Source: a virus (Duplodnaviria > Caudoviricetes). From it: 56,075 nucleotides of DNA. The notes beneath the pieces were generated by a model, which was given only the letters and a program-made list of their open reading frames with translations, made no database searches and was not told the origin of the DNA. Below, piece after piece: positions 866-38,385 of this stretch; position 1 is the first letter of the stretch; each line of letters opens with the position of its first letter. The translations under genes and the position numbers were made by a program. The stretch covers positions 1 through 56,075 of the IMG/VR virus record IMGVR_UViG_3300021185_002716; one strand, given 5' to 3'.

Positions 866-874
866 TCATTTGTT

Positions 875-1438: not shown

Positions 1439-1574
1439 TCTACCAGAGTACAACTCATAATTTAAGGATCAATTCAATAGTATTTTAAAATACAGTTAAT
1501 AACAACAATCAAAAATTTAATATGATCACATACTAATTTCTTTTATTTGTATAACAAATTCAACAATTAAAATT

Positions 1575-1862
1575 ATGGCAAAGAAGATTAAAAAAGATGA
1601 ACTAGTAAAAGTTCAGGAAAACAATCAAAAGCAGTTTCAGATTAAAACCGCTTTGGCTGATTTGGTAATATCTAAAAGACAATATGATGCAAGAAAGGCA
1701 GAGTTATTTGCCAATCTTGATGAGACTGTCCAAGAGCAACAAGAGATTCAAAAAGAGTTGCAAGAAAAATACGGAGATGTTACTATCGATATTAGCAACG
1801 GTTCAATTATGGATGCTGCTCCTACTAATGTAGAGCAAGATGACGATAAAGGAGATTCATGA
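1575..1862 (+). CDS. small coiled-coil phage protein
   Basis: 95-aa ORF with A-rich leader; helical, ending ELQEKYGDVTIDISNG. Confidence 0.6.
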   Translation: MAKKIKKDELVKVQENNQKQFQIKTALADLVISKRQYDARKAELFANLDETVQEQQEIQKELQEKYGDVTIDISNGSIMDAAPTNVEQDDDKGDS

Positions 1863-4066: not shown

Positions 4067-4068
4067 TA

Positions 4069-9354: not shown

Positions 9355-9410
9355 TATTAAAATGAAGAAATTTAAAAGATATGCTATAAGTACAATAATA
9401 AAAGTTAGAC

Positions 9411-10268: not shown

Positions 10269-10279
10269 AAAAATATATT

Positions 10280-10873
10280 ATGTCAGCAGAAGCAGGTAAA
10301 GCCTTTGGTCTTATTGGTGGAGGTCTTCAGGCAGTTGGGGGTTTAGCACAACTGGCTTCAGGAATCTTCGGTAGGAAGGGAAGGCAAAGAAGACTTGAAA
10401 ACTTAATTGCATCAAGACCAAAATATCAAATCCCAAAAGAAATACAACAAGACATGGAGATGAGAAGAAACCGTGTCAACTCTCAACTTGACGAGCAACA
10501 GGCATTGCGTGATAATTTGTTTACTCAACAGCAAAATCAAATAGCAATGGCTCAACAATCAGGTGGATCAATAGAAGACATGTTGGCTGTTGGTGCTAGT
10601 CAAGATGCCTCAATGAGTAATGCCTTAATCAATGCACAAGCACAAGGAGCATCACAAAGAGCACAAAGACTTGATGATTTTTCTCAAGCCGGGATGAACC
10701 TTGCTCAAGCAAAAGATCAAGCGTTTAAAATAAACGAATTAGATCCTGCTAACATGAGAATAAAAGGCACACTAGCAAATGATGCTATGTCTAGAGAGAT
10801 GACCTTTGGCGGACTTAATCAAGCAGGTGGAGGTTTAGCAAACATAGGATCTACATTAATAGCAACAGCATAA
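10280..10873 (+). CDS. putative ejected/internal virion (cargo) protein
   Basis: Gly/Ala-rich hydrophobic N-terminus and Gln/Ala-rich helices; directly after the muzzle. Confidence 0.6.
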   Translation: MSAEAGKAFGLIGGGLQAVGGLAQLASGIFGRKGRQRRLENLIASRPKYQIPKEIQQDMEMRRNRVNSQLDEQQALRDNLFTQQQNQIAMAQQSGGSIEDMLAVGASQDASMSNALINAQAQGASQRAQRLDDFSQAGMNLAQAKDQAFKINELDPANMRIKGTLANDAMSREMTFGGLNQAGGGLANIGSTLIATA

Positions 10874-18800: not shown

Positions 18801-21022
18801 TAGAAGAACTGCACAGTATATTGAGAGAGGCTCCAGAAAACAGCGAGTTAGCAAATGCCGCTATGAGGTCGACATATAAGTACATGGATTCATTAGTTCC
18901 CTCTTATACATTGAAAGATACATTCTTCGGGTTGCAATATGCAGCACTTCTTTCAGGTGTTTCCACTCAAATACTTAACATAACTTCAGGATCTGCAAAC
19001 ATTATATTGCAACCACTGATGGAGATGTCGAGAGTAGATAGAATATTCACAGGAGGATATCTTGATTTCATCAGAAGCATAGGGGTTGGCACAACTAAAA
19101 GAGGTTTCGAGCAAGGCCGAAACATGGCAATGGATATTCTTAAAAATGGATCCAGAGTTGACAAGTATCAAAACTCAGAAGCAAATCCGGAGGCGGGAAG
19201 TTATAATGTTCTAGAGACAACAGAATTTAAAGGAGGTAAAAAGAACCCATACAACTATTATAAATTTGTAGGTAGAGTATTGAACGCTACAGATAGATTT
19301 ATAAGTAAGGTTGGTTATGAAGGAAGGTACTTTAATTACCTTCTTGATCAGTTAAGAAAAGATGGTGTACCAAAAAGTGAATTAAGAAAGAGAGCATCTG
19401 ATTTATACTTAGCGACAGAAGTAAGTAGGCATGCCAAAAAAGAGATGGAGTCATTGATGGGTAGACTGCGAGAGGCGGATCCCAACACAGACTTTAGTAA
19501 TATTGAAAAAGTCCGAATGAGAGAACTCATGCACGAAGCACTTGTTGCAAGGTATAGTGAGGATTTTATTGGTAAGCCTGATGCCGAACTAGAGACCATG
19601 AAAGAGAAAGAAAACTTTGACGGGTCTATAGAAGAGTATAAGGAATATCTAAAAGCAATGAAGGAGGCTGAAATCAAAGGGCTTTCTATTGATGCTACCC
19701 TTGCTAGTAATGCTCAAGTGTTTATAGACAATAGACCTGGAAGTCTTGCACAACCAGTTGCATGGATGGCTAACTACATCCGCACATTATCAAACAATCC
19801 AAAAGCAGGCTTTGGTAGGCAACTTGTTTTAAAATCGTTTGTTCCTTTTACAAGCATCATCGGCTCAATCGGAGAGTATATGATAGATGTAGCACCAGGT
19901 ATAGGTGTGGCAAGAGGTTATAAAGCAGAAGATGGATTGGGAGAAAAAGGATCTAGATTGAGAGACGAACAAATGTCAAGAGCGTATTTTGGCACAACGT
20001 CATTTATGGGTCTAGCCGCTTTAGCAGCAATGTCATATGAAGATGACGATGATGATCCGTTCTTTGAAGTTAGTGGTGGAGGTTACAATAACTCAAACCA
20101 ATACACAAGAAACGACATGAAGAACGCTCCACTACCTCCATATACAATTAAGGTTGGTAATAAGACGATGGACTACAGAAACATTATTCCTTTATCAATA
20201 CCCCTTGCTATCATAGGAAACTATATGGAGACACATAAAATGACCGGTGGAAAAGGTGAGGTCTTTGATGATATGATGGAAAGAACACTTATTGCTTATG
20301 CAAACTCTGTTAACCTTATTATGGATTCATCGGTACTTACTTCCGTAAGAGAGTTGAGTGAGGCGGTGTTTGGACAGGTAACTGGTCGTGGATCGCAATT
20401 TGATCCTAACACAGTAGATGATTCTAGTGTTACAAAAACATTGGACAGAATTTCAAAGACAGCCATAAGATCTGTTGGAGGTACCCTATTAAGGCCAATG
20501 CCACAAAATCTAAATTTGTTTAGACAGGTAACAAAGATCTTTGATGCTACATCATATAGTGCGGGCGATGTAAAGAACGCATTGTTATATGCCGCAGGTC
20601 TAAGTCAGATTGCAGGACAACCTAGGATAGATGCTTTTGGTGAAAAGACTAAGAGTTACCCTGGAGAAACTGTGATACCATACACTCACTGGCTCAATGT
20701 TAGAGGTGATGACAGAAGGTGGCAGTTTATTGACAAGCACAATGCTTACCCAGGTAAAATCCAAAACAGACCTATGAGGGTTGGTAATGAAATGAGAACC
20801 CTTACTGATGATGAACTTTATCAGCATCAAATAACAACGGGTCAAGAGTTTAGTAGAATGTTGACTAATTATATTAAAGGACAAGGGCAATTGGAAGACA
20901 GAATATTAACCACATCTGGAAGATCACAAAGCATGCATAAGATGAATATCCAAAAAATGTGGAGAGCGGCACAAGCAAAATCAAAACTTAAGAATGTAAA
21001 CACCTGGAGAAACAACGATTAA
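12806..21022 (+). CDS. giant polyvalent internal virion protein (ParB-like, zincin HExxH, glycosylase-like and helical domains)
   Basis: 2738 aa; PAVID..GNVLDGMKR (ParB-like), IYINP...TPIHEFAH (zincin), GWY...SAQT...KT.NFY.N...TIDLW...LQAYLW block; hydrophobic Gly/Ala segments. Confidence 0.7.
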   Translation: MEDEEILGVDPFVDLSIEDREDKLTILADRLRRSSGTGMTNFAIQDIQGVIPELNPEQFQDAVAWGNTFNRGRYEQGNELNSKFESLFPELDDLQFPEYENNNGSIDVVNKQLNPENAQNKWAGIQSAIDKGTDMYNNQQPDSVIENINLLPEGTDEDIKKNLIQYGQVLRHTDPEFNKRYTPGEDPFQTPESAYEFTKQARNFQGTKFKVNGLRYVAKNYDRNLYDYIEKNEDFFAYMPELRDDEEFMKMYKHHEKLASNYHDHIDNNFKELYDNEMRDVMQTMRLSGEGVVPGDYLSSSMAVGFGAIVESVGNLAGGIVEFGGKYGTNLVGGKTGLALDVALDAFAATTMTDEQRESVDGLSTAYEQRVGEVADNISHFFSSDNWKDTAIGQFAYVPDQVASASLSENPVYILPMTLKTVGEMAPAIAAAAYTGGGTLVAGGIMGGDQFFKAYHQTNKEARELGVDEEDAEAMALSIGLVTGGTSALFNNPLARKGAAAMMGIRSNSVKKAVDVLSKTGSRQAAVKAGTRAYAKEIVGENFEEIIQGSFENYTKYKYDAKSPNPVYGVDKFMSKDEFINTMILTTTATTLMASPGLGVSSTQLEKEAWTTAGLGYKTFESAVQKELKRKSPKFTAEVAQGMLDKAKKYEAIVLPMKEAGTKINQIVEEADFVYNAMNAPRAENAESTVEETIEEKKTEIKNGIPKPGAIVDGSKVVSVIENIGDSKTDKELSDKLGNIEGRTFKMKRVDLETLYQTNENFKNFVDENPDMEYEGSRKNAPAVIDESGNVLDGMKRMVAAYNRGQKGIRVLTEQEAVISKEKQSEADSLIDEIISPPKPSTGQEVDPETGDVNTEIEKLSNHFQRVFKGSEVTYDQQTFNDAAASVNLDPKKLKGFRDRKTNKIYINPKLATLDTPIHEFAHIWEDMLSEVNPEAHKKALKLIEGTKFHKDAVASGYGDRSLNEALVQAIGEKGAKIFKDPKRQSEFEKIIEQVKDMIKKALSLPAEADFDIKTSSLNEMIESSAEKLMTATSIDPTTDNEIDVDAIDMQRYKNPEREAISEFKALQETLKNDPTLSLIEPVMKDGRYQFEKRGKKLKIKISSQSYNMVNGLEKYFEGTLEQKINQIGDKIVDEYNANSTVEEVVKGMGWYKDLHTRMRNIFGGRTNFFGRLIGATSAQTDVRNNYKYAVMALKGYSNGAYDSYIEEYKEFIDRVEQYQNEEELNQFFNEYKGRAINAAKNLGQSTKIFDVSPDPKDIDETKRKLLNLWPKANVLYRTDNPTLRYGINSPATAKVLAGIWLNQTQQTKTNNFYKNVVGITTNPTIDLWAARTIRRMIYDGNIDRYRIPERAEAGVNEKALVNSGNISDYRLAEEVIINASEKLGMDPDDLQAYLWFAEKDLWLKNGWATGAAAKKGDFRDESSKEEITRYYLGLSTERPSYKNPVLDNQDKLEMLKEEGVSIEKDLRGQDLISLKVNTTKSQYLNDPERAFDAEMIVESSQDMTPVLKRVIESAKKYEQESVFMSEVLPIDERMDPETMERELTKRPNARPAVELQFVNPLSFDEATKFAQDNIEKEGVQIGPVKTAISGYTIITNESGDKAIGIKYQFVPEFVFENEEDITDDNIRQASIDWVNNAAETQINLENNENVLYFYKHYVDTFVAHNNQYNEILNKIKNGSEDIYKGTSKTRTKQYYQSKGRSSIESETSSGIDAQRNQDGGDRPRFSGTVPSDDGGSISQTEHRRLDTQKLPSALSGLLGKLKDKGFTSAELIYGIKSYSLKVNGKELTTEQARVVLSKYMSDNGFRQRGFETGSVEKAKDQDVGKEEVYDWVNNNPNYYKTMDMKETMDLVLEDVNSRGGFENVDVLKDLLKTDTTVKELARVQLARQAALHHYGLKVSKLRSEGASTAEIDSVIETMGQIERALAGDGTYSGQASAALRSWTAQTATTLIDRTELAMEKFNEDMDNKTKFGHFIHRLFGGKQKLESTTLSAEQKSKIEELHSILREAPENSELANAAMRSTYKYMDSLVPSYTLKDTFFGLQYAALLSGVSTQILNITSGSANIILQPLMEMSRVDRIFTGGYLDFIRSIGVGTTKRGFEQGRNMAMDILKNGSRVDKYQNSEANPEAGSYNVLETTEFKGGKKNPYNYYKFVGRVLNATDRFISKVGYEGRYFNYLLDQLRKDGVPKSELRKRASDLYLATEVSRHAKKEMESLMGRLREADPNTDFSNIEKVRMRELMHEALVARYSEDFIGKPDAELETMKEKENFDGSIEEYKEYLKAMKEAEIKGLSIDATLASNAQVFIDNRPGSLAQPVAWMANYIRTLSNNPKAGFGRQLVLKSFVPFTSIIGSIGEYMIDVAPGIGVARGYKAEDGLGEKGSRLRDEQMSRAYFGTTSFMGLAALAAMSYEDDDDDPFFEVSGGGYNNSNQYTRNDMKNAPLPPYTIKVGNKTMDYRNIIPLSIPLAIIGNYMETHKMTGGKGEVFDDMMERTLIAYANSVNLIMDSSVLTSVRELSEAVFGQVTGRGSQFDPNTVDDSSVTKTLDRISKTAIRSVGGTLLRPMPQNLNLFRQVTKIFDATSYSAGDVKNALLYAAGLSQIAGQPRIDAFGEKTKSYPGETVIPYTHWLNVRGDDRRWQFIDKHNAYPGKIQNRPMRVGNEMRTLTDDELYQHQITTGQEFSRMLTNYIKGQGQLEDRILTTSGRSQSMHKMNIQKMWRAAQAKSKLKNVNTWRNND

Positions 21023-29404: not shown

Positions 29405-30367
29405 TTAACTATTTATTAACAATTTATTATTTGCCTCCTGCTTTCTCAAGGAATCTATGTCGCTATGTTTTACATATCTATAAAATGCTTCAGATCCATT
29501 CGCATGGCCTGATATCCTTCTCACCTCCATCTCACTTAAACCTTTAGATAAATGGTAGGTAATCCCACTGCTTCTAAGTTTGTGTGGTGTGATTAGGTCG
29601 TATAAAAAATGTTCCGATGCTTGAGGGTTCCCCTCATGATCATAATTGTAAACGGTTTTGATTTGCATAAACTCTGGATAGAATTTAAGCAGTCTCTTCA
29701 ATGCTCTTCTAAAAGATTTCATTGACCAAACATAAGTGCCATGTTTTGCTATGTAATTATTTACATCGTCTGGCAAATAGAATCTTGATAGAGATCCCAT
29801 TCCCTTTTTTGTAATGATCGTTACAATATTACCATCACTTGTTGCCTTAAAGTTTCCAAGATCTGATATTCTCATACAAGAATAAAGCATAAGTCTAGTG
29901 TAATACCAGACGTGCTCTAGTTCTTTTCCGGGACATGTATTGTGTATAAGATCAACCTGATCTGGGGACAAAGCAATTACCTCTGTCTGTACCTCTCTCA
30001 TTGACTGCAACTTAGGAAACAGATACCCATAGTATGATTCCGCTTTTTTAAGTGTAGCCCTTATGTTTTTAAGGTCTGACTTCCTTGTGTTCGGATGCTT
30101 GCATTCATCCATAAGGATATTCAAATATCCATTGACATTGTTTTGTAATTTTCGGGTGACGATCAACCGCTCCCTTCTATTGGCAACACCGTTTAGATCT
30201 AACTCTTCGATATTAAAATCATATGAGTGGTTTCTAAAAGATGTAAGTAATTTTCTATATGCCGATATAGTTAATTTAGAGAATCTCTTTCCGTAATTCA
30301 TTATCTCCCCGTTCTCCATTAGTTCGATAATGTTTTCTAAAAGTAATGTGAATTTATAATCCTTCAT
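29405..30367 (-). CDS. int: tyrosine recombinase / integrase
   Basis: Catalytic residues visible: MRISD (R), K, HKLR (HxxR), SGH, YRY (Y). Confidence 0.88.
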   Translation of the reverse strand: MKDYKFTLLLENIIELMENGEIMNYGKRFSKLTISAYRKLLTSFRNHSYDFNIEELDLNGVANRRERLIVTRKLQNNVNGYLNILMDECKHPNTRKSDLKNIRATLKKAESYYGYLFPKLQSMREVQTEVIALSPDQVDLIHNTCPGKELEHVWYYTRLMLYSCMRISDLGNFKATSDGNIVTIITKKGMGSLSRFYLPDDVNNYIAKHGTYVWSMKSFRRALKRLLKFYPEFMQIKTVYNYDHEGNPQASEHFLYDLITPHKLRSSGITYHLSKGLSEMEVRRISGHANGSEAFYRYVKHSDIDSLRKQEANNKLLINS

Positions 30368-30477
30368 AGAAGTATATTTATTTAGTTAAACAAAATCCGA
30401 TAGTTAATAAGTAAAATTAGTTGTGATTGTAGTTGATTTCAGAATGTGCCCGTACTGACTGTACAGGCCGTTCTGTC

Positions 30478-30499
30478 GTAGTCCCTAGGGGACTTGAAC
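30478..30499 (-). other. candidate attP core: 3' end of a tRNA (Glu-like)
   Basis: Minus strand GTTCAAGTCCCCT-AGGGACT-AC reads as T-loop, 3' T-stem, acceptor strand and discriminator, with no 5' half; 110 bp upstream of int. Confidence 0.6.
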
Positions 30500-30505
30500 A
30501 ATCGT

Positions 30506-30763
30506 TCAATCGTTAATAACTTTATCTATCCTTTCGGACAGGCCTCCATAGTACTCTATGATCCTGCACGACTCCTCGAATCGTAGTGGTGATAAGCCTG
30601 TTTTCTTTTGATTTAACGTGCTCTTTTTAGACTTCGAGCCGTATATATATTCACATACCTGTGTAGTTGGTATGTCCTCTAATTGAAGCAACTTATGTGC
30701 TTTTTCTTTGAGAGATATGTGAGAGGAGAGTCCTCTTCTTTTAGTTTTCATTCTAGTTATCAT
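30506..30763 (-). CDS. small HTH (XRE/Cro-like) protein
   Basis: IPTTQVCEYIYG...STLNQKKTG...LRFEE pattern. Confidence 0.55.
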   Translation of the reverse strand: MITRMKTKRRGLSSHISLKEKAHKLLQLEDIPTTQVCEYIYGSKSKKSTLNQKKTGLSPLRFEESCRIIEYYGGLSERIDKVIND

Positions 30764-30787
30764 TAGTTATTATCATTAAAAATAGTA

Positions 30788-31324
30788 TTATTTTGTCTTA
30801 TTTACAAGTATCTTCTTTAAAGTTCTGTTTAACCGGTAAGAACAGTTGCGATCATTCATAACACCCCTTAAAACAGAATTTTCTATTCCCAAAAAGTTTT
30901 CACGGATTAAGTCCCATGAGTTCATCTCAATGTTACTAAGTAGTTCGTCATATTTTTTAGTCATATCGTTCAAAAGTCCCTTTAATTCAACAACATCTAT
31001 AATATTAACATCACCTAATTTACCCTTACCTAGATCCGTGTCTGTTATAATCTTCAGACAAGTTGAGTAGTTTCTCCTAAATTCTTTGTCTGCTTCAGCG
31101 AGCGAAATGGCTTGCTTACAGGCATACATTATTGTGGCGTGATCTCTTTTCAACACCTTTCCAATTCTATTGTAGGGTGCACCTAAAAAATCTCTAGTTA
31201 ACTTACACAGTATAAAGCGAGCGTCTACATTATCACGAGTCCTGTCCCCGGAAAAAGGATTTGCTCCAGTTACTCTGTTGACGACATCGCCTATAAATTT
31301 CATATCTTCTTTTAGTCTACTCAT
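30788..31324 (-). CDS. DnaA C-terminal (domain IV)-like DNA-binding protein
   Basis: RTRDNVDARFIL.KLTRD...YNRIGKVLKRDHATIMYACK matches the DnaA domain IV RDHxTV signature. Confidence 0.8.
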   Translation of the reverse strand: MSRLKEDMKFIGDVVNRVTGANPFSGDRTRDNVDARFILCKLTRDFLGAPYNRIGKVLKRDHATIMYACKQAISLAEADKEFRRNYSTCLKIITDTDLGKGKLGDVNIIDVVELKGLLNDMTKKYDELLSNIEMNSWDLIRENFLGIENSVLRGVMNDRNCSYRLNRTLKKILVNKTK

Positions 31325-31393
31325 TGTTGTTTATTTTTTAAGCATAAATTCCCTGTCACATATATGTAACTAAAAAATTATATGTGGTTGATT

Positions 31394-31699
31394 TTAAACT
31401 GTTTGCAATACGCTTCTGCCTATCTCTCTTGATAAATTCCAGGAATCCGCCCAATATTTTTTTGATCTTTGCACTGACCCGTAACCGTTGGCCTTTACCT
31501 GATACCTTGATGGTACTGTGACAAAAATGTTTATTTTGATTGAGTGATAAGGCAAGTAACACGCCCCAGATTTAAGGGCTTCCTTACATGATTTAGTGAC
31601 GTTTCCGCCAATCTTCCACGCCTCTCCTGAATTGATAAGACTCTGCTGAATGTCGTATCCAAATTGCTTTTGCAACTCTTGAATTTTACGCTCGTTCAT
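31394..31699 (-). CDS. hypothetical phage protein
   Basis: 101-aa ORF, QSLINSGEAWK...LKSGACYLP...VPSRYQVK; A-rich leader. Confidence 0.65.
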   Translation of the reverse strand: MNERKIQELQKQFGYDIQQSLINSGEAWKIGGNVTKSCKEALKSGACYLPYHSIKINIFVTVPSRYQVKANGYGSVQRSKKYWADSWNLSREIGRSVLQTV

Positions 31700-31755
31700 A
31701 ATTATAGTTTTTTTTTGTAGTTATAATTAACGTCTGACATTGCTAAAATAACATT

Positions 31756-31938
31756 TTAGTCTGACATATCAAAAAATTTAACATCCGGATTTGAATTATC
31801 GTTCAACTCATTTGAATGAAAAATTATTTGTCTACCTCTGATGTTGTGAAAAATCTCTAGTATAAATTCCTCTCCCGCACCAGGATAAAGTCCCTTTAGG
31901 TTTGATATCAATTTGATATCCTTTTTATTTAAACTCAT
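31756..31938 (-). CDS. hypothetical protein
   Basis: 60-aa ORF with ATGA overlap. Confidence 0.5.
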   Translation of the reverse strand: MSLNKKDIKLISNLKGLYPGAGEEFILEIFHNIRGRQIIFHSNELNDNSNPDVKFFDMSD

Positions 31939-32318
31939 TGTTGGCTTCTTTTTAGATAATTTTTTGCTCTTCTTTCGTTCTCAAAATATATTTGATTTGA
32001 ATTTTGTCTGTAAAGTTCTTCGCTAACGTCATCCCATATTGAATACACTACCTCTCCGTCTTCAATAATCCAGTAGTCATCTCCCTCTTTAAATGGAAAA
32101 ACTATTCCCGCTCGCTCGTCTTTTATCCGCTTTACTCTTCCCATATATTTTTTAGTTTCGCTTATAAGTACCTGTACCTCCAGTAGTTGTTCACTGATAT
32201 CCTTTAGGTATTTTATTGATTGGTCAGGAGAATAATTATACTTCTTCGAGATCGTGTCGAGAATGTTCTTTTTAAGAAACTTTCCCATTTTTAAATTAGT
32301 AATTCCCATAAAACTCAT
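31935..32318 (-). CDS. hypothetical protein
   Basis: 127-aa ORF with A-rich leader. Confidence 0.6.
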   Translation of the reverse strand: MSFMGITNLKMGKFLKKNILDTISKKYNYSPDQSIKYLKDISEQLLEVQVLISETKKYMGRVKRIKDERAGIVFPFKEGDDYWIIEDGEVVYSIWDDVSEELYRQNSNQIYFENERRAKNYLKRSQQ

Positions 32319-32330
32319 ATTGTTTGTTTT

Positions 32331-32912
32331 TTAAGTTAGTGATCTTTTTAGTTCATCCCTTAACATTCCGTATTCAACCTCTAGCCACTCAACAAATTGC
32401 TTTTCTTCTCTTTTCGGTATTGCTATGGTTACCGATGATGAAAACACGTTAGTAGTTGGGCTTGAGATCACCGATACACGGACAGGACAATGGACGTGTC
32501 CATTCATAATTTCTTCTACAAGATCATTCAAGTCATGCTTCCACGGGACATCACTCCAGTAGTCCGTACCCCATCCCGACTCTATCTCCTTCCAACCATT
32601 GGACAGATCTATTTCATAGTATCCTCTCCATGCATTTGAAGATTTCCAAACCACATCATCTATTGACAAATGCTCATGATCATCCTCTCCCCAGATTTCT
32701 TCATGGTAATCGTTGAATGCCATACCTAGTCCAGGAACAAAAAAGAATTTCTTACTTTCCTCGTCTTGGGGTGACCAAGTTAGTATCTGTGTTGCACTCT
32801 CCCACATAGAATGGTAGCAGTGTTCACATATTTGGTTACCATCCTTATCAAAGGAGTGCCAATCATCTTGGTCATAAGTCTCCTCGCACGAAGTACATTT
32901 AAATTTATCCAT
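32331..32912 (-). CDS. acidic early protein with N-terminal Zn ribbon
   Basis: CTSC...CEHC; starts 30 nt after the hammerhead 1 cut site. Confidence 0.7.
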   Translation of the reverse strand: MDKFKCTSCEETYDQDDWHSFDKDGNQICEHCYHSMWESATQILTWSPQDEESKKFFFVPGLGMAFNDYHEEIWGEDDHEHLSIDDVVWKSSNAWRGYYEIDLSNGWKEIESGWGTDYWSDVPWKHDLNDLVEEIMNGHVHCPVRVSVISSPTTNVFSSSVTIAIPKREEKQFVEWLEVEYGMLRDELKRSLT

Positions 32913-32937
32913 TTTGTTTTAGTTTAAATTATTATTT

Positions 32938-33019
32938 ACAAAGACGGAGGGCTGAAAATCATGCTCGTTCAAAACATATCCCTCCGTTTCGCCTGAATCT
33001 CACAGGCTCATCAGTTTGC
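32938..33019 (-). ncRNA. type I hammerhead ribozyme HHR1
   Basis: GCAAA-CUGAUGA-GCCUG(UGAGAUU)CAGGC-GAAA-CGGAGGG(large loop)CCCUCCG-UC^UUUGU; all three stems pair; predicted cut 32943/32942. Confidence 0.9.
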
Positions 33020-33199
33020 TTATTTTTTAAAAAAGTATTTATCTTCCTTATCTATTACTTCGACTCCAATGATCTTTGATGTGCCATGATCTTTGTTTGC
33101 CTTATTCAAATAGTTGTTGAGGTGTCTATCGTCATTAAAGTCTCTCACATAAGAGCGATAGTTTCCTGACCAGTTTTTAATATCTATTCTAACCTTCAT
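33020..33199 (-). CDS. 59-aa hypothetical protein (not in ORF track)
   Basis: MKVRIDIKNWSGNYRSYVRDFNDDRHLNNYLNKANKDHGTSKIIGVEVIDKEDKYFFKK*; its stop abuts HHR1. Confidence 0.65.
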   Translation of the reverse strand: MKVRIDIKNWSGNYRSYVRDFNDDRHLNNYLNKANKDHGTSKIIGVEVIDKEDKYFFKK

Positions 33200-33211
33200 C
33201 GTTAACTTTAT

Positions 33212-33565
33212 TTAAGTTTTAATTATATCTGTTATTAATTCACACACCACATAGTAAGATGCTTTTATGCTTTGAGCATCAAACTCTTGATAAAGAATGT
33301 CATTACCTTTTACTATTAGTGACTGCCAATCTTTATCTATTGGTTGATAGTTTTTCTCGAAAGTATATCCAAGAGTTTCTATCTTTTCTATTACTGGCAT
33401 CAGCCAATCCCAAGATTTGTGAAATTGCATTGGTGCAATCGTACCATCATTGTATTTAGGTGAGTAGCATTTGTTATGATTTACCTCGTACCCCATAAAT
33501 TCTGCTATAAGTCTATTACTCCTACCTTCCATATTAATTGTTTTAGTTTTCATATTAGTATGCAC
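33212..33565 (-). CDS. hypothetical phage protein (NRLIAEFMG...FHKSWDWLMPVIEKIE family)
   Basis: Recurring phage motif recognised by eye; function unknown. Confidence 0.7.
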   Translation of the reverse strand: MHTNMKTKTINMEGRSNRLIAEFMGYEVNHNKCYSPKYNDGTIAPMQFHKSWDWLMPVIEKIETLGYTFEKNYQPIDKDWQSLIVKGNDILYQEFDAQSIKASYYVVCELITDIIKT

Positions 33566-33851
33566 TTACAGGTTTTAATTGATTTTGTTCAAACGTCTCC
33601 CATTCCCATTCGTCATCGTGAACAGTTAGACTGTGGAAATACTTCTGTAGGTTTTCAGCAATGTATTCAAGTTCATCACTTTCTCTCCAATCTTTAATGG
33701 TGCAGTCACCATCTATTCTGCCGAGCATTCCTCCACCCAAATAGTTTTGGTATGCCGTCATCTTTTCTCCAAAATACCCAAAGTTGTCAAGGGCAATCTC
33801 TATTCCTCCACCTCGGTAGGAAATCTCTTGTCTGATGATATTAAATTTCAT
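33555..33851 (-). CDS. hypothetical early protein
   Basis: 98 aa; starts 27 nt after the HHR2 cut site. Confidence 0.7.
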   Translation of the reverse strand: MKFNIIRQEISYRGGGIEIALDNFGYFGEKMTAYQNYLGGGMLGRIDGDCTIKDWRESDELEYIAENLQKYFHSLTVHDDEWEWETFEQNQLKPVSAY

Positions 33852-33873
33852 TTTGTTTTAGTTTAAATTATTT

Positions 33874-33931
33874 AACCTGACTCGATCCGGAGACCGAGTT
33901 TCGCCTGAATCTCACAGGCTCATCAGAGGTT
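33874..33931 (-). ncRNA. type I hammerhead ribozyme HHR2
   Basis: AACCU-CUGAUGA-GCCUG(UGAGAUU)CAGGC-GAAA-CUCGGUC(UCCG)GAUCGAG-UC^AGGUU; predicted cut 33879/33878. Confidence 0.95.
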
Positions 33932-34390
33932 TTATTTTTCTACAAAGTCAAACTTCTGGCGGAGGTTACCCTCGTGGATTGCAGTAGGAAATAGTTCTTG
34001 CATAAGTTCTAATTCTTCACCATACAGGAATCTGTCTCCATCTTTTTTCAATCTCTCCTCCATTTCCTTCCCGATCCAAGAGTCTTGTAGAAGTACTCTG
34101 TAAACATCTTTGCTTATGTCTTTCCAACCCCTCTCTTTATCCCAAAGAGTATCGTCTGCGTAGTCACCATCTATTGTGATATTATCACCCGACCATCGTC
34201 CGATGATCTCAGACTCCGAAGGATGGTCTCCACCTCCACGACCATTGCCGTTTGCTAGAAGTAAAGAGAGACCTTGTAGCATGCCTCTACCATCAGATGT
34301 AAATTCCATTAACTTCATACCATTCCCAAACGTGTGTGGGCTTAGGTATTCCTTTTTAGTTTTGTTGAACACTTTATAGTATTGTCCCAT
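33932..34390 (-). CDS. hypothetical early protein (MGQYY...GRWxGD family)
   Basis: 152 aa; flanked by HHR3 and HHR2. Confidence 0.75.
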   Translation of the reverse strand: MGQYYKVFNKTKKEYLSPHTFGNGMKLMEFTSDGRGMLQGLSLLLANGNGRGGGDHPSESEIIGRWSGDNITIDGDYADDTLWDKERGWKDISKDVYRVLLQDSWIGKEMEERLKKDGDRFLYGEELELMQELFPTAIHEGNLRQKFDFVEK

Positions 34391-34413
34391 GACTTTAGTT
34401 TTAATTATTATTT

Positions 34414-34477
34414 AACCTGACTCGGTCTGTATCTATTGACCGAGTTTCGTCCCATCACAGGGTACTCATCAGAGGTT
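34414..34477 (-). ncRNA. type I hammerhead ribozyme HHR3
   Basis: AACCU-CUGAUGA-GU(A)CCC(UGUGAU)GGGAC-GAAA-CUCGGUC(10 nt)GACCGAG-UC^AGGUU; predicted cut 34419/34418. Confidence 0.92.
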
Positions 34478-34981
34478 TTACTTGATTTCTGTAAAGTGAT
34501 TAATAAGCATATTCAAGCCCGAAACAATGCCTTTGTGTTCTGACATAGTGTGTGAATCGTTTACCCATTCATCATCTGAAACAATATCTATCATTACATT
34601 TTTGATATCCTGAATTGAGTAAGTCTTCTCCGAGTTATTGATAAGAGTTTTGTAGAAGTCGTACACCTCTATTACCTTGCTCATTGTTTGGTCGAAGAAT
34701 GATAATTGGTGGGGGGTGACCTTGTCCTTGTACTTATCCATAAAGACCCTTAGATACTCTACATCTAAATAAACTCCTTCAGGAAGATGACCATCGAGTA
34801 AATCATAAAGACCTCCCTCAATTCTAGTGATGGTATTATCCCAGTCATTAATTGGAATAACTTTACGAAAGGAATACTCTATACCTGAAACGTCTTTGAT
34901 TAAGCCCTTAATATGTGTTAGATGTATAGGGTCTTTTACTTTTGATGTTGGGACTTTTGGTTGTGGTTTTGTAGTTGTCAT
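34478..34981 (-). CDS. hypothetical early protein
   Basis: 167 aa; flanked by HHR4 and HHR3. Confidence 0.7.
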   Translation of the reverse strand: MTTTKPQPKVPTSKVKDPIHLTHIKGLIKDVSGIEYSFRKVIPINDWDNTITRIEGGLYDLLDGHLPEGVYLDVEYLRVFMDKYKDKVTPHQLSFFDQTMSKVIEVYDFYKTLINNSEKTYSIQDIKNVMIDIVSDDEWVNDSHTMSEHKGIVSGLNMLINHFTEIK

Positions 34982-35005
34982 GATTTTCAGTTTAAATTAT
35001 TATTT

Positions 35006-35057
35006 GACATTGACGCTCCGAAGAGCGTTTCGACCATTAAGGTCTCGTCAGAATGTC
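35006..35057 (-). ncRNA. type I hammerhead ribozyme HHR4
   Basis: GACAUU-CUGACGA-GACC(UUAAU)GGUC-GAAA-CGCUC(UUCG)GAGCG-UC^AAUGUC; predicted cut 35012/35011. Confidence 0.95.
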
Positions 35058-35068
35058 TTTAGTCTCCC

Positions 35069-35386
35069 TTATCTCATGCCCAATTGTGATCTTTGCTCCC
35101 TTTCAAAGTCAGCATCTGTGTTTGCACTGTCAATTTGTGATCTTGTAGTTGTCGTAATTTCTGTTAACTTGGTAACCTCCGTAATCCCGTCAGTCATTGA
35201 TAGACTAAAACCTGCCCGGGTCAAGTTATTGATGACACTAGCACAGCAATCTATTATTCCAATCTTAAATTCCGATGATCCAAGCCCTCCCACGAAGTTA
35301 TCTTTTGGCTTGTTGATGATGATTTTTGTTGAGTGATTTTTTGATATGATCTCAATCGCTTGTAAAAAAGTCTCTAATTTTCTCAT
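35069..35386 (-). CDS. hypothetical protein, first gene of the early operon
   Basis: 105 aa; same AAUUUAAACU.GAAAAUC-AUG leader type as the downstream genes. Confidence 0.65.
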   Translation of the reverse strand: MRKLETFLQAIEIISKNHSTKIIINKPKDNFVGGLGSSEFKIGIIDCCASVINNLTRAGFSLSMTDGITEVTKLTEITTTTRSQIDSANTDADFEREQRSQLGMR

Positions 35387-35427
35387 GATTTTCTAGTTTA
35401 AATTAATATTTGTTTTGAACGATGGTA

Positions 35428-35435
35428 CAAATATA
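35428..35435 (-). promoter_or_regulatory. Bacteroidota primary-sigma -7 element (TAnnTTTG)
   Basis: TATATTTG on the minus strand ~42 nt upstream of the 35386 start; no clean -33 TTG found. Confidence 0.65.
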
Positions 35436-35592
35436 AAACAAAAAATCAATACGTCCGACACGGCTAACTAAAATAAATCGTCTCAACAGATCTAAAATAC
35501 ATGAAATTTTTTTTTGGGGGGTAATGAACAAACGTACAAATTAGGGGGTGTTCAACTCCCGTTTACTATAGTTGGCGGGATATCGAAACTTG

Positions 35593-35664
35593 TACCTTCG
35601 GAAGGAATCGAACCTTCATCACTGGTTTAGAAGACCAGGGTTTTATCCGTTAAACTACGAAGGC
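35593..35664 (-). tRNA. tRNA-Arg(UCU), CCA not encoded
   Basis: Acceptor GCCTTCG/CGAAGGT, anticodon arm CTGGT-CT TCT AA-ACCAG, T arm GAAGG TTCGATT CCTTC. Confidence 0.93.
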
Positions 35665-35690
35665 GATTTTGGGGCGACCTTATCAAATTA

Positions 35691-36110
35691 CTATAGGCAA
35701 GTATACAAGTCCCGTATAAGGTAATTATATATGCGTCTTAACTGTATACGGCCATAGACAGAAATACAAAACTGTTGACCCTTAAATTGTTTCTTCTTGG
35801 TTAACCTGTCAACGAAACCTAATTGAAGTAGTAACTTATGTTCCCTGTAGATAGGTGTTTGATTTGATCGATTAGGTAACCAGTCCATCTTCTCACAGAT
35901 ATCAATTACATCAGGCATTGTGTAGAAGGTGAAGTCACTCTTATTCTCCGACTCTTTAATGGCACACGCTAAGAAGACCATGACCGCTCTGGACGATAGT
36001 TCACCATCGATACTTCGAAGGTATTTATTGATAGAATGTTTATGGCTGAATAACTCAACCAGTTTCTTGGCTACAACCATCAGGCAAATAGAAGGGTTAA
36101 CACAATACAA
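35691..36110 (-). CDS. winged-helix-like DNA-binding protein (start uncertain)
   Basis: IYREHKLLLQLGFVDR...FCISVYGR, MarR/wHTH-like. Confidence 0.55.
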   Translation of the reverse strand: MYCVNPSICLMVVAKKLVELFSHKHSINKYLRSIDGELSSRAVMVFLACAIKESENKSDFTFYTMPDVIDICEKMDWLPNRSNQTPIYREHKLLLQLGFVDRLTKKKQFKGQQFCISVYGRIQLRRIYNYLIRDLYTCL

Positions 36111-36839
36111 ATGGCAAGCAATTTAAATGACCATTCAATTGTTTTGTAACTGTTCTCGACCTGTCCTTTGGTCCGTCCTTGGCGGTAGTAATAATCTTTG
36201 TAATCCATCTCTTTTATTTTGTTTTAAAAGTTAGTTATCAATTTTGTCCAGGCGTTGCATCGTTAACATAAACGCATGCGATTTTTTCTTTTGACCTTTC
36301 CGAATGGTTTCCCTCTTGCAGAAAACTGTAGGAAAAATGCACACACCATGTAAAAAGGTGTATGGGTGGAACGTAAAACGCTGATAGTCAGGTGTTAGGG
36401 GTGGGTTTGTCCGAGTCCCGTTTGGACTACTTCCCAATGCCAAACTCATTTCTACAGGGTACCCAGTTCCACTTTTCTGATTCCACTCTTGTGTGTTGGT
36501 ACCCATGTATTAGGTGTAAGCCCATTGACACATCAACAATGACGTTCTGAGCAAATCTAAGAAACTTTATTTGATTTCTAATACAATGATGCCGGTTTAA
36601 TTTTTACATAACCTTAGATCCTCTTAAAATCAATTCGGGGTGTCTGAACTATGTAATATACTTTTTAATAAAATACTTGTATAATAAATAAACACTAGTA
36701 TATTATATATAATACTAGTATAGTGGGTAGCCAATTTGTCTAGCCGTGATAGCCATAATGGCTAGCAGTTAAAAACTCTGTTAAGAACTTGCTTAACAAA
36801 CTACTCTGAACAGTCGTTCATTATTTCTAACTTGCACCT

Positions 36840-37442
36840 ATGGAAATGATTGGTCAAAGACTAGCGGTCAAGATTGAGAAAAAATATAATGACGAGGTAG
36901 AGTTCTCCAATGGGGAGAAACTATTTATGGACGTTTCCTGGAATCCAGAGCATCACGTAACGATATGTGGAGAGGTCGTGGCTTTGCCTAGAGGAGAGTG
37001 GTGTAAAAATACAAGGGGTGAGTTGATCAAGCAGGAATTGCAAGTAGGCGACCTAGCCTATTTTAATTATCTGACAGTTCAGGAGGATAACCTTGTAACG
37101 GACGAAAGGAACGTCTACCTTGTCGATTTAGAAGAATGTTTTTGCTATGTAAGATCAGGAGAAATTACTGCTGTAGCAAATCATGTCCTTATAGAGCCCG
37201 ATATCATAGAGGATAAGGTGGGTTCAATTTATGTGGGTGTACCAACAAAGAGTGAGGAGGAAGGATATGTGAGGTATTTGAGTACACCTCTTAAGGACAA
37301 AGAAGAACTAGGTTTAGTTAGTGGAGATAAGGTTAGGTTTCATGAGAGAAACGCCTTTCTTAACAAAATCGAGGGGAATGAATATTATGTGATGAAGCAG
37401 GATGATTTGTTTGGAAAGGTAATAAATGGAGGGACCCTATAA
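36840..37442 (+). CDS. tandem GroES-like co-chaperonin protein
   Basis: Two GroES-like units: GQRLAVK...GEVVALP...LQVGDL and NHVLIEP...GSIYV...GDKVRF...IEGNEYYVMKQDDL. Confidence 0.75.
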   Translation: MEMIGQRLAVKIEKKYNDEVEFSNGEKLFMDVSWNPEHHVTICGEVVALPRGEWCKNTRGELIKQELQVGDLAYFNYLTVQEDNLVTDERNVYLVDLEECFCYVRSGEITAVANHVLIEPDIIEDKVGSIYVGVPTKSEEEGYVRYLSTPLKDKEELGLVSGDKVRFHERNAFLNKIEGNEYYVMKQDDLFGKVINGGTL

Positions 37443-37977
37443 CATACCAGAATGTATTTTTGAACACGCCCGACTTTATGTCGATACACGAGTGATGGCC
37501 AACAGAGATCACTACAAAAAACTTTATTGGAAGTCCAGAAGTTATCAATACAAGCACCCAATACTATTTGATGAGCCGGTAGATAACGAGTTCTACACAG
37601 ACTTTAAAGGGATCTTAGCCGAGTTATTGGTTAGGCATCATTTTGATTTAAAGGGCGTGAATTATACAACTTCAGCATTTGTAAAAGAAAAAGGAATAAA
37701 TGATCCTGACTTAATAGTTAAAGATAAAAGGATAGATGTCAAAGGTTGTGAGAGATCTTTGAAGGTAAATATGTTTACCATAGATAAGTTAGAGGTTGAC
37801 TATGTATTGTTTGTATTGTTTCTTTCAGACCATAGGTACATTCTTTTGAACTTTAAGAAGAGTGATATAAAGAAGTGGAAAGTCGTCACCATTAATGATC
37901 GTAATAAATACTACGAGTTTAAGGTAGATAAACGTCAGTTTAGATATGACACCCCCAATCAAACTACCCCCAAATAA
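37426..37977 (+). CDS. PD-(D/E)xK nuclease-like protein
   Basis: GILAE...DPDLIV...IDVKG. Confidence 0.6.
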   Translation: MEGPYNIPECIFEHARLYVDTRVMANRDHYKKLYWKSRSYQYKHPILFDEPVDNEFYTDFKGILAELLVRHHFDLKGVNYTTSAFVKEKGINDPDLIVKDKRIDVKGCERSLKVNMFTIDKLEVDYVLFVLFLSDHRYILLNFKKSDIKKWKVVTINDRNKYYEFKVDKRQFRYDTPNQTTPK

Positions 37978-37989
37978 AAAATTTTTAAA

Positions 37990-38385
37990 ATGAGTAGCCT
38001 AAATGAACATGACGGATTTCGCTCTGTAATACCAAAGAAGACCTGTAATGTATGCGGTAAAGAAAAGAGGGCGGATAGGTTTAGGGGTCGTGAAATAAAA
38101 ACCTGTAAGAAGTGTGAGTTTCGTTGGTACCTTAGACTACTTAGGTATTTAGTAAAAGAAAGAAAACTAACCCCCGTAGAGAGAATTGCAAATCGACTGG
38201 GGTACATGGGGACCGCCTTTATAATGATGTCCCCCTATCTCTTGAAGCATGATGATGTTGGTGCGGTTACATATGTTATTGGTGGCATTCTTTCTTTACC
38301 ACAAGTCTTTGTTGCAAAGCAATGGAATATTGTTGCAGTCAACCTTAATGTAACTATCGGATACTTAATTTATATAATGTTATGA
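37990..38385 (+). CDS. Zn-ribbon plus membrane domain protein
   Basis: CNVC...CKKC then ~3 short hydrophobic segments containing LPQV. Confidence 0.6.
   Translation: MSSLNEHDGFRSVIPKKTCNVCGKEKRADRFRGREIKTCKKCEFRWYLRLLRYLVKERKLTPVERIANRLGYMGTAFIMMSPYLLKHDDVGAVTYVIGGILSLPQVFVAKQWNIVAVNLNVTIGYLIYIML

What the first reader, a model, noticed from the sequence alone, without database searches (positions are those of the whole stretch)
32938..35057. Array of four hammerhead ribozymes punctuating a phage early operon
Seen: four intergenic elements on the coding (minus) strand (35006-35057, 34414-34477, 33874-33931, 32938-33019). Each has the full hammerhead core in type I topology: stem I, CUGANGA, stem II, GAAA, stem III, GUC cut site. 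Stem sequences differ between copies while pairing is kept (stem I GACAUU/AAUGUC, AACCU/AGGUU, GCAAA/UUUGU; stem III CGCUC/GAGCG, CUCGGUC/GACCGAG, CGGAGGG/CCCUCCG), which argues for selection on the fold. Established: hammerheads self-cleave to give 5'-OH and 2',3'-cyclic phosphate ends. Inference: the transcript from the promoter near 35430 cuts itself into pieces of about 410, 593, 540 and 936 nt plus the downstream remainder. That would be a protein-free counterpart of RNase III processing of the T7 early mRNA. Hammerheads are known in phage and bacterial DNA, but I do not know of a described gene-by-gene array like this.
Basis: partly seen in the sequence, partly recalled or inferred. Interest (0 to 1): 0.96.

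Follow-up and report, generated by a model that had tools for sequence, protein, structure and literature searches.

The report
Four hammerhead ribozymes between phage genes
Four self-cutting RNA motifs (hammerhead ribozymes) lie between the first genes of a marine phage's early gene block and probably chop its long RNA into single-gene messages, an arrangement already described for prophages in 2011.

Summary
Four complete type-I hammerhead motifs lie on the minus strand at 35057-35006, 34477-34414, 33931-33874 and 33019-32938. My descriptor found 4 in the window, against 1 hit in total across 300 shuffles. A close relative keeps all four; its 7 differences in 256 nt are 5 loop changes and one compensatory pair. 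A relative at about 43% protein identity keeps hammerheads before the same two genes, with co-varying stems. Sixteen of 18 modelled pairs show changes on both sides.

Each ribozyme starts at or just after a stop codon. Each would cut 27-30 nt upstream of the next ATG, leaving a conserved A/U-rich leader.

The best reading is self-cleavage of one polycistronic early RNA into gene-sized mRNAs with uniform 5' leaders. Cleavage itself is not shown.

The arrangement is not new. Perreault et al. 2011 (PMC3088659) described and tested clustered hammerheads flanking single genes in prophages. My scan of viral contigs found arrays of up to seven.

Verdict: a real feature and a new member of a known kind, of moderate interest.

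The parts
35428..35435 (-). Promoter-like box TATATTTG. It matches the recalled Bacteroidota -7 consensus TAnnTTTG and lies about 40 nt upstream of the g1 start codon.
   Evidence: It is the only minus-strand match between 35529 and 29734. The motif is not enriched in the window as a whole (63 found against 68.5 expected), so this is weak evidence.
35069..35386 (-). g1, a 105-aa ORF with no family match. It is preceded by the conserved leader (AATTTAAACT at 35404-35395).
35006..35057 (-). HH1, a type-I hammerhead of 52 nt. Stem I GACAUU/AAUGUC, stem II GACC/GGUC, stem III ACGCUC/GAGCGU with a UUCG loop. Predicted cut between 35012 and 35011.
   Evidence: (55.2 bits). The L004 copy has 51 of 52 nt identical. 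L180 has a near-identical copy.
34982..35011 (-). Predicted 30-nt 5' leader of the g2 mRNA after cleavage: the 3' strand of stem I followed by AAAUAAUAAUUUAAACUGAAAAUC.
   Evidence: Predicted unpaired.
34478..34981 (-). g2, a 167-aa ORF with no family match. Its C-terminal 45-50 residues are shared with many viral contigs.
34414..34477 (-). HH2, a type-I hammerhead of 64 nt that starts directly after the g2 stop codon. Stem I AACCU/AGGUU. Stem II has a conserved bulged A and a U-GUGA-U loop. Stem III has 8 bp. Predicted cut between 34419 and 34418.
   Evidence: (65.0 bits). The orthologues in L004 and L180 keep the bulged A and carry compensatory changes.
33932..34390 (-). g3, a 152-aa ORF of unknown function. 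It is the most widely shared gene of the block: 7 viral contigs plus L180.
33874..33931 (-). HH3, a type-I hammerhead of 58 nt that starts directly after the g3 stop codon. Same stem I as HH2 and same stem II and loop as HH4. Predicted cut between 33879 and 33878.
   Evidence: (74.8 bits)
33020..33851 (-). g4 (33851-33555, 98 aa), g5 (33553-33212, 113 aa) and g6 (33199-33020, 59 aa). This three-gene block has no hammerhead inside it. g6 carries the leader motif (AATTAAAACT at 33224-33215) without a ribozyme.
   Evidence: g5 is absent from relative L004.
32938..33019 (-). HH4, a type-I hammerhead of 82 nt that starts directly after the g6 stop codon. Stem I GCAAA/UUUGU. Stem III has 8 bp and a 28-nt loop containing a small hairpin. 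Predicted cut between 32943 and 32942.
   Evidence: (56.6 bits). Compensatory U-A to C-G change in stem II in L004. Orthologue before the g7 homologue in L180.
32331..32912 (-). g7, a 193-aa ORF of unknown function with Cys-rich N-terminal motifs. It is the first gene of the remainder of the operon, which runs on to the replication genes.

Best explanation
The four elements are genuine type-I hammerhead ribozymes embedded in one minus-strand transcription unit. That unit opens the early/replication module of a marine phage of about 56 kb, whose host is probably a member of the Flavobacteriia.

As RNA polymerase passes each ribozyme, the RNA folds into the three-way junction and cuts itself after C17. 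This releases, in turn, the g1, g2, g3 and g4-g5-g6 messages and the downstream remainder starting at g7.

Each upstream fragment ends in an almost complete, strongly paired hammerhead with a 2',3'-cyclic phosphate. Each downstream fragment starts with a 5'-hydroxyl and a uniform, unstructured A/U-rich leader of 27-30 nt just before its start codon.

Shown here: the motifs, their statistical significance, their conservation and covariation, and their position relative to the genes. Taken from established hammerhead chemistry: the nature of the two ends. Inferred: transcription as one unit, cleavage in vivo, and any effect on mRNA stability or translation.
For: Motifs and significance:
- All core nucleotides are intact, and the pairs next to the core are standard in 4 of 4 elements.
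- The descriptor found 4 hits, against 1 hit in total across 300 shuffles.
- The minimum-free-energy folds of HH2, HH3 and flanked HH4 give the hammerhead junction, and the leaders are predicted unpaired.

Conservation:
- Relative L004 keeps all four. Its 7 differences in 256 nt are 5 loop changes and one compensatory pair, while the flanking DNA is 85-88% identical.
- L180 is syntenic at 30-60% protein identity. It has hammerheads directly before the g3 and g7 homologues, with changed but still pairing stems and the same bulged A.
- On 16 aligned elements, 98.8% of cells pair (61.8% in shuffles; 29.5-42.2% when partners are slid). Sixteen of 18 pairs change on both sides, and 0 of 500 shuffles reach the observed values.

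Context:
- All hits in relatives lie on the gene strand, begin at or near a stop codon, and end 20-40 nt before an ATG.
- No terminator-like site and no second TAnnTTTG box lie inside the array.
- Downstream on the same strand come a DnaA-C HTH protein, an integrase-like protein, a RecE-like exonuclease, a replication initiator and a primase/helicase.

Precedent: clustered prophage hammerheads cleaved about 2-kb polycistronic transcripts in vitro, and one set cleaved in E. coli (PMC3088659, passages).
Against: - There is no direct evidence of cleavage or of a single transcript.
- Rfam's curated hammerhead models do not reach their thresholds.
- I could not identify the tertiary contact (loop-loop or pseudoknot) that natural fast hammerheads usually have. 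Stem I is only 5-6 bp and open. Rates at cellular Mg2+ could therefore be low.
- The copies within the window are paralogues that share stems, and window and L004 are close kin. The number of independent covariation events is therefore smaller than the cell counts suggest. Alignment A5 was also fitted to the model's structure, which leans the counts towards it.
- Arrays are not universal in the lineage: 0 hits in 3 of 10 related IMG/VR records and in 5 of 6 cultured or named relatives.
- The promoter assignment rests on an 8-nt motif that is not enriched in the window.
Confidence: 0.75

Rival explanations
1. Insulator or expression-cassette reading, which refines rather than excludes the best explanation. 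Here the selected function is not cutting the RNA as such. It is to give every cistron the same short 5' leader and a free 5'-OH end. That would decouple its translation and stability from the upstream gene, as the engineered hammerhead insulator RiboJ does. The repeated ribozyme-plus-leader junctions would also let genes be swapped in and out as cassettes.
For: - The same leader (consensus AAAUAAUAAUUUAAACUAAAAC, a few nt, then AUG) follows the promoter and all four ribozymes. It precedes 6 of the first 7 genes, and in its exact form it occurs nowhere else in the window.
- Other phage arrays each have their own repeated leader after every ribozyme. In the high-GC contigs L148 and L168 that leader holds a GGAG Shine-Dalgarno-like box.
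- Gene content between conserved ribozymes differs between window and L004: an extra 90-aa ORF in L004, g5 missing from L004, and the N-terminal part of g2 not alignable as DNA. HH1 plus its leader is nevertheless 97.5% identical.
- RiboJ is described as a hammerhead that normalises the 5' UTR, and uncleaved mRNA is modelled as decaying faster (PMC7536230, passages).
Against: - No expression data exist.
- The repeated leader could simply reflect duplication of the ribozyme together with its flank.
- g6 has the leader without a ribozyme, and g5 has neither.
Confidence: 0.35
2. Each gene has its own promoter, the conserved A/U-rich motif. The hammerheads then act as 3'-end-forming elements that trim read-through from the gene upstream, so the block is not one polycistronic RNA.
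For: A 20-nt sequence repeated before six genes could in principle be a phage-specific promoter. No intrinsic terminators separate the genes.
Against: - The motif ends only 5-10 nt before each ATG.
- It does not match the TAnnTTTG box (direct reading of the alignment against the recalled consensus).
- In other arrays the equivalent repeated element holds a ribosome-binding GGAG at the normal spacing, which argues for a translation signal.
- No phage RNA polymerase was recognised. The 2738-aa and 1761-aa proteins have no DFDxD motif and no RNA polymerase family hit.
Confidence: 0.08
3. The ribozymes are relics or selfish repeats that spread within the early region and no longer do anything for the phage.
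For: The copies share modules, suggesting duplication and recombination. A degenerate copy exists in a relative at L088:2573-2671, with a U-U at the 10.1-11.1 position. Related phages lack them.
Against: Zero core or pair-breaking changes among 7 substitutions, against 12-15% divergence in the flanks. Orthologous retention with compensatory changes at about 43% protein identity. Strict placement between stop and start codons on the gene strand.
Confidence: 0.05
4. Cleavage is followed by ligation, giving a circular or spliced RNA. HH2 and HH3 have the same stem I. The 540-nt g3 fragment could therefore bring its own two ends together in a complete hammerhead and be rejoined, either by the ribozyme or by a host RtcB-type ligase.
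For: Identical AACCU/AGGUU stems in HH2 and HH3 in both window and L004. Hammerhead ends are the substrates of such ligation (established knowledge; the possibility is raised in PMC3088659).
Against: The other neighbouring pairs have different stems I. In L086, L088 and L180 the stems I of neighbouring ribozymes differ. Perreault et al. report that they could not detect circular or spliced products. The shared stem is most simply a recent duplication.
Confidence: 0.03

Closest known systems
Clustered hammerhead ribozymes in prophages (Perreault et al. 2011, PMC3088659; Clostridium scindens, Azorhizobium caulinodans, and the Agrobacterium tumefaciens triple arrangement around ardA)
   Same: Several hammerheads a few hundred nt apart on one strand, flanking single genes or short gene blocks of phage origin, with variable gene content. 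The proposed role is processing long phage transcripts into single-gene mRNAs.
   Different: This example is in a virus contig from seawater, and its nearest cultured kin infect Flavobacteriia. All four are type I. Each is fused to one repeated A/U-rich leader without a Shine-Dalgarno box. I read only passages of the paper; its Figure 3 and Dataset S1 could not be seen, so I cannot say whether similar Bacteroidota-phage examples are already listed there.
Rfam RF03152 RAGATH-1 hammerhead and RF00163 Hammerhead_1 (type I models)
   Same: Same permutation (stem I open) and same core. RF03152 aligns the core and stems I and III of three of the four elements.
   Different: Scores are far below the cut-offs, and the extra 5' hairpin of RAGATH-1 is not matched. 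These elements are therefore not members of those curated seed families.
HHphage of haloviruses HF1/HF2 (described in PMC3088659)
   Same: A hammerhead a few nt upstream of the first ORF of an early polycistronic phage transcript. The mapped 5' end lies within three nt of the cleavage site.
   Different: It is a single copy with an atypical core insertion, in an archaeal virus.
RNase III processing of the phage T7 early transcript (recalled knowledge)
   Same: One long early RNA is cut between cistrons at structured intergenic sites.
   Different: T7 relies on a host protein enzyme and produces 5'-phosphate and 3'-OH ends. Here the RNA would cut itself and leave 5'-OH and 2',3'-cyclic phosphate ends.
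RiboJ and other engineered ribozyme insulators (PMC7536230, passages)
   Same: A hammerhead placed upstream of a ribosome-binding region to give a defined 5' UTR.
   Different: RiboJ is engineered from a type-III satellite-RNA ribozyme with an added hairpin. The elements here are natural and type I and leave an unstructured leader.

Membership tests
Hammerhead ribozyme class (criteria in the Methods of PMC3088659) | Conserved core C3 U4 G5 A6 N7 G8 A9 ... G12 A13 A14 A15.1 ... U16.1 H17 | tested here: met
   4 of 4 elements; H17 is C in all
Hammerhead ribozyme class (criteria in the Methods of PMC3088659) | No mispair directly next to the core in stems I, II or III (1.1-2.1, 10.1-11.1, 15.1-16.1) | tested here: met
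   U-A or A-U, G-C and A-U respectively in all four
Hammerhead ribozyme class (criteria in the Methods of PMC3088659) | Three stems without multiple mispairs or bulges | tested here: met
   Stems I have 5-6 bp, stems II 4-5 bp, stems III 6-8 bp. HH2 has one bulged A in stem II, which is kept in L004 and L180.
Hammerhead ribozyme class | Stems supported by covariation among homologues | tested here: met
   16 of 18 pairs change on both sides, and 0 of 500 shuffles reach the observed values. Orthologous compensatory changes are seen. Caveat: the alignment was fitted to the model and contains close kin.
Hammerhead ribozyme class | Tertiary contact between stems I and II (loop-loop or pseudoknot) for fast cleavage | tested here: inconclusive
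   No closed loop I and no convincing pseudoknot. By my reading of the loop II sequences printed, 7 of 15 related elements have a U-GNRA-U(U) loop II (GUGA, GCGA, GAGA, GAAA) that could dock on stem I or its A-rich flanks. This is an observation only.
Hammerhead ribozyme class | Site-specific self-cleavage giving 5'-OH and 2',3'-cyclic phosphate | not testable with these tools
   Needs a bench assay or end-specific RNA-seq
Rfam RF00163 Hammerhead_1 | Score at or above the gathering cut-off of 34 bits | tested here: not met
   Only HH1 is listed, at 21.9 bits. Nothing at gathering score.
Rfam RF03152 RAGATH-1-hammerhead | Score at or above 56.3 bits, including the 5' accessory hairpin | tested here: not met
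   24.6, 23.5 and 20.6 bits for three elements; the hairpin columns are mismatched
Clustered phage/prophage hammerhead arrays (PMC3088659) | Multiple hammerheads in close proximity flanking single genes or short gene blocks in phage DNA, on the transcribed strand | tested here: met
   Four in 2.1 kb, separating g1 | g2 | g3 | g4-g6 | g7 onwards, in a record with terminase, portal and primase/helicase genes

The most novel reading that the evidence does not exclude
The ribozyme and the repeated leader together form a portable expression cassette. Self-cleavage would create a free 5'-OH end 27-30 nt upstream of each start codon. In a host lineage that does not use Shine-Dalgarno pairing, that end could be what allows efficient, context-independent translation and stabilisation of each early message. 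The repeated junctions would at the same time serve as recombination points for exchanging early genes between phages. This would be a natural bacterial-virus counterpart of engineered ribozyme insulators. It would also parallel the self-cleavage-enabled translation reported in 2026 for RNA viruses of fungi and plants (PMC13725137, abstract only).
Probability: 0.2. Interest if true: 0.6.

Novelty: new member of a known kind. Interest (0 to 1): 0.35.

Why it matters
The biological role of bacterial and phage hammerheads is still described as unresolved (review PMC6765202, passage). This window is a clean test case.
- It has four intact ribozymes in 2.1 kb at the head of an early operon.
- The phage's DNA is present in many marine metagenome runs.
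- Syntenic relatives at three divergence levels are available for comparison.
- One repeated leader ties each cut site to the downstream start codon.

My limited scan suggests that type-I arrays of 3-7 copies, each with its own repeated leader, recur in very different phage lineages with G+C from 30% to 63%. That makes the question of what the arrays do for phage gene expression general, and it makes the link to translation signals testable. The arrangement itself is not a new principle.

Tried and rejected
RNA evidence. One search found 14 DNA runs holding at least 95% of the sampled words and 5 RNA-library runs holding 7-18%. I laid the contigs of four RNA libraries on 32331-35450. This gave 16 pieces at depth 2-6.3, some with 6-9 mismatches. 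None bridges any of the four cut sites. One piece (35019-35169) stops 7 nt before the HH1 cut. By my rough estimate only about 2 bridging pieces would be expected by chance. Contigs cannot show RNA ends, and DNA carry-over is possible. I therefore draw no conclusion about transcription or cleavage.

Rfam. The gathering-score search over the window found only the tRNA. An E-value search over the whole window found no other ribozyme class.

Phage collection. There was no DNA match for 30001-38000 and no protein match for g3.

Gene functions. PHROGs, Pfam and PADLOC searches of g1-g8 (PHROGs and Pfam also covered two further ORFs), and PDB sequence searches of g3 and g7, gave nothing usable. The only hits were a marginal phrog_34017 match for the ORF at 31935-32318 and a 13.8-bit typeIV_Cas8 match for g7. 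An AlphaFold2 model of g3 from a 9-sequence alignment had mean pLDDT 62.6. That is too low for a fold search, so none was run.

Virion RNA polymerase idea. There is no DFDxD motif in any ORF longer than 200 aa, and no RNA polymerase family hit for the 2738-aa and 1761-aa proteins.

Extended stem I or a loop II-leader pseudoknot. I looked by eye only. The candidate pairings were not shared between copies, so I dropped the idea.

L085:2674-2732. This was found only by my relaxed descriptor, which also gave 3 hits on reversed control sequences. Neither covariance model found it, so I rejected it.

MAFFT alignment A1 of the elements was structurally wrong and was not used.

Supplementary files of PMC3088659 (Figure S1-S3, Dataset S1) were not seen and may list similar arrays.
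Full report
WHAT IS THERE

The window is a 56,075-nt IMG/VR virus record, estimated 88% complete, with 37% G+C. On the minus strand between 35057 and 32938 lie four elements with the full hammerhead consensus in the type-I permutation.

One detail was missed. Stem II of the second element has a bulged A. My strictest descriptor therefore found only three of the four. With one bulge allowed it found four. In 300 dinucleotide-preserving shuffles of the window, 299 gave no hit and one gave a single hit.

ViennaRNA folds HH2, HH3 and flanked HH4 into the three-way junction as the minimum-energy structure. It leaves the downstream leaders unpaired.

Rfam does not call these elements. Nothing reaches gathering score. 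In E-value mode there are only weak hits to RAGATH-1-hammerhead (24.6, 23.5 and 20.6 bits against 56.3), Hammerhead_1 (21.9 against 34) and Hammerhead_3 (26.3, 22.0 and 21.1 against 48.5). No other ribozyme class appears anywhere in the window.

CONTEXT

The elements sit between small ORFs with no family matches. The layout is: g1 (35386-35069), HH1, g2 (34981-34478), HH2, g3 (34390-33932), HH3, g4-g5-g6 (33851-33020), HH4, g7 (32912-32331).

HH2, HH3 and HH4 begin at the base immediately after the upstream stop codon. HH1 begins 11 nt after it.

The same strand continues into a DnaA-C HTH protein, an integrase-like protein, a RecE-like exonuclease, a replication initiator and a primase/helicase. 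Terminase, portal and virion proteins are on the other strand. Calling the block 'early' is a reasonable inference from this layout. It is not shown.

A TATATTTG box lies at 35435-35428. It fits the Bacteroidota -7 consensus as I recall it. It is the only minus-strand match down to 29734, and no terminator-like site lies inside the array. The motif is not enriched in the window overall, so this is weak support for a single promoter.

A tRNA-Arg(UCU) gene lies just upstream on the same strand.

The large terminase is about 31% identical to those of Flavobacterium phages. It is also related to terminases of Cellulophaga, Tenacibaculum and Maribacter phages, and more distantly to those of crAss-like phages. 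The host is therefore probably a marine member of the Flavobacteriia (inference).

THE LEADER

Cleavage would leave 30, 28, 27 and 30 nt before the start codons of g2, g3, g4 and g7. These leaders, the 5' UTR of g1 and the region before g6 share one sequence. The consensus is AAAUAAUAAUUUAAACUAAAAC, followed by a few nt and then AUG. The 10-mer AATTTAAACT occurs exactly four times in the window, all in this block, plus two one-mismatch copies in the block. There is no Shine-Dalgarno box.

CONSERVATION

Three levels of relatives were found.

(i) L004/L084 (91% identity in g3) has the same four ribozymes. Of 256 ribozyme positions, 7 differ. Five are in loops and two form a compensatory U-A to C-G change in stem II of HH4. 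None touches the core or breaks a pair. The flanking DNA is 85-88% identical. Gene content between the ribozymes differs: L004 has an extra 90-aa ORF, lacks g5, and has a g2 N-terminal part that cannot be aligned as DNA. HH1 plus its leader is nevertheless 97.5% identical.

(ii) L180 is syntenic at 30-60% protein identity across g3 and g7-g11. It has hammerheads directly before the g3 and g7 homologues, and an HH1-like copy. Stem II and stem III pairs are changed on both sides. The bulged A of HH2 and a GNRA-type loop II are retained.

(iii) L086 and L088 have two hammerheads each, and L089, L024 and L033 have one each. L088 also has a degenerate third copy just before its g3 homologue. L085, L087 and L090 have none.

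On an alignment of 16 such elements, 98.8% of cells pair, against 61.8% in shuffles and 29.5-42.2% when the partners are slid. Sixteen of 18 pairs show changes on both sides, and 0 of 500 shuffles reach the observed values. Two caveats apply. The alignment was fitted to the model's structure. Eight of the 16 rows come from two close relatives.

HOW COMMON ARE SUCH ARRAYS?

My second model, run on 79 of the 80 loci (L116 was omitted as a duplicate of the L088 contig), gave 104 hits at E <= 0.001. Of the 79 loci, 74 had at least one hit, 15 had two or more, 6 had three or more, and 4 had four or more: 7, 6, 4 and 4. A few of the lowest-scoring hits look doubtful.

In the six multi-copy loci I inspected, all copies lie on one strand, between ORFs. 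Each locus has its own repeated leader after every ribozyme. In the high-GC loci L148 and L168 that leader contains GGAG.

This sample was selected for the pattern, and the loci are truncated. It shows that such arrays exist, not how frequent they are.

Among six cultured or named relatives, only Flavobacterium phage elemoF_6-3D gave a hit (30.6 bits). It has a weak stem II. It lies between gp65 and gp67, under a small CDS annotated on the opposite strand.

WHAT IS KNOWN

Passages of Perreault et al. 2011 (PMC3088659) make three points. [quoted passage not shown] Three tandem arrangements cleaved as expected on about 2-kb transcripts, and one set also cleaved in E. coli.

A 2019 review repeats the idea and says the purpose is still undefined (PMC6765202). 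Searches combining hammerhead and ribozyme terms with Flavobacteri-, Bacteroidetes, phage and virome terms returned no paper on such phages. I could not see the 2011 supplements.

The kind of system is therefore already known. This is a new, clean member of it.

MECHANISM

Most likely (0.75), the block is transcribed as one RNA and each ribozyme cuts itself co-transcriptionally after C17.
- By established hammerhead chemistry, the upstream piece ends in a 2',3'-cyclic phosphate behind a stable hammerhead fold.
- The downstream piece begins with a 5'-OH.
- The short A/U-rich stem I should let the products part.
- Whether this mainly separates the cistrons or mainly standardises and stabilises each downstream message cannot be decided here. 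The second reading parallels the engineered RiboJ insulator (PMC7536230). The repeated leader and the cassette-like gene turnover favour it as a refinement (0.35, not exclusive).
- Less likely readings are per-gene promoters with the ribozymes acting as 3'-end formers (0.08), inert relics (0.05), and circularisation of the g3 fragment through the shared stem I of HH2 and HH3 (0.03).

WEAK POINTS

- There is no cleavage or transcript evidence. The RNA-library contigs were too sparse to use (see Tried and rejected).
- No tertiary contact was identified.
- The Rfam thresholds are not met.
- The promoter call rests on an 8-nt motif.
- The copies within the window are paralogous.

VERDICT

The feature is a new member of a known kind. 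Interest is 0.35.

Noticed in passing
L148 (IMGVR_UViG_3300031366_000001), minus strand, locus 543-4550; L168 (IMGVR_UViG_3300021180_000047), plus strand, locus 6029-10567: These high-GC viral contigs carry 7 and 6 type-I hammerhead hits on one strand. Each hit lies between small ORFs and is followed by a contig-specific repeated leader with a GGAG box (AGGAGCUGAA... in L148, CUGCAAUGGAG... in L168). Both arrays are larger than the one in the window.
   Followed up: partly
NC_055853.1 16046-16101, minus strand (L097 1501-1556): The cultured Flavobacterium phage vB_FspP_elemoF_6-3D has a candidate type-I hammerhead (30.6 bits) with the same stem I as HH4 but a weak stem II. It lies in the gap between gp65 and gp67, under a 35-aa CDS (gp66) annotated on the opposite strand. 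That CDS is probably spurious.
   Followed up: partly
L086 about 4466-4544: In this relative the g3 homologue appears to read five codons into the hammerhead and to stop at a UAA at the start of stem II. Coding sequence and ribozyme would then overlap. This is my reading of the sequence printed.
   Followed up: no
window 35592-35664, minus strand: A tRNA-Arg(UCU) gene lies directly upstream of the array on the same strand. About 200 nt separate it from g1; this gap holds a C-rich/A-run stretch and the promoter-like box.
   Followed up: no
window 29405-30367, minus strand: An integrase-like gene (phrog_1, E 4e-18) lies in the same leftward block, between the DnaA-C HTH protein and the RecE-like exonuclease. 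The phage may be temperate.
   Followed up: no
window 33932-34390, minus strand (g3), and alignment A8: g3 belongs to a small protein family found only in related viral contigs. It has an invariant MGQY N-terminus and conserved GRW.GD.I...GDY and NGRGGGD motifs, and no family or PDB match. The AlphaFold2 model had low confidence.
   Followed up: partly
window 34478-34981, minus strand (g2), residues about 119-167: The C-terminal 45-50 residues of g2 form a module shared at 45-73% identity with at least 99 stretches in many otherwise unrelated viral contigs. Almost all of those contigs lack hammerheads nearby.
   Followed up: partly
window 12806-21022 and 4069-9354, plus strand: Two giant ORFs of 2738 and 1761 aa lie in the structural module. 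The second matches a virion structural protein family. Neither has the DFDxD motif of crAss-like virion RNA polymerases.
   Followed up: partly
window 36840-37442, plus strand: A 200-aa ORF matches a PHROG annotated as co-chaperonin GroES. It is transcribed divergently from the leftward block.
   Followed up: no
window 32331-35450: Fourteen DNA runs, labelled marine, seawater or viral metagenome and drawn from 10 coded studies, hold at least 95% of the sampled words of this stretch. Nine rows are flagged as possible sources of the record. The phage is therefore recurrent in seawater samples.
   Followed up: no
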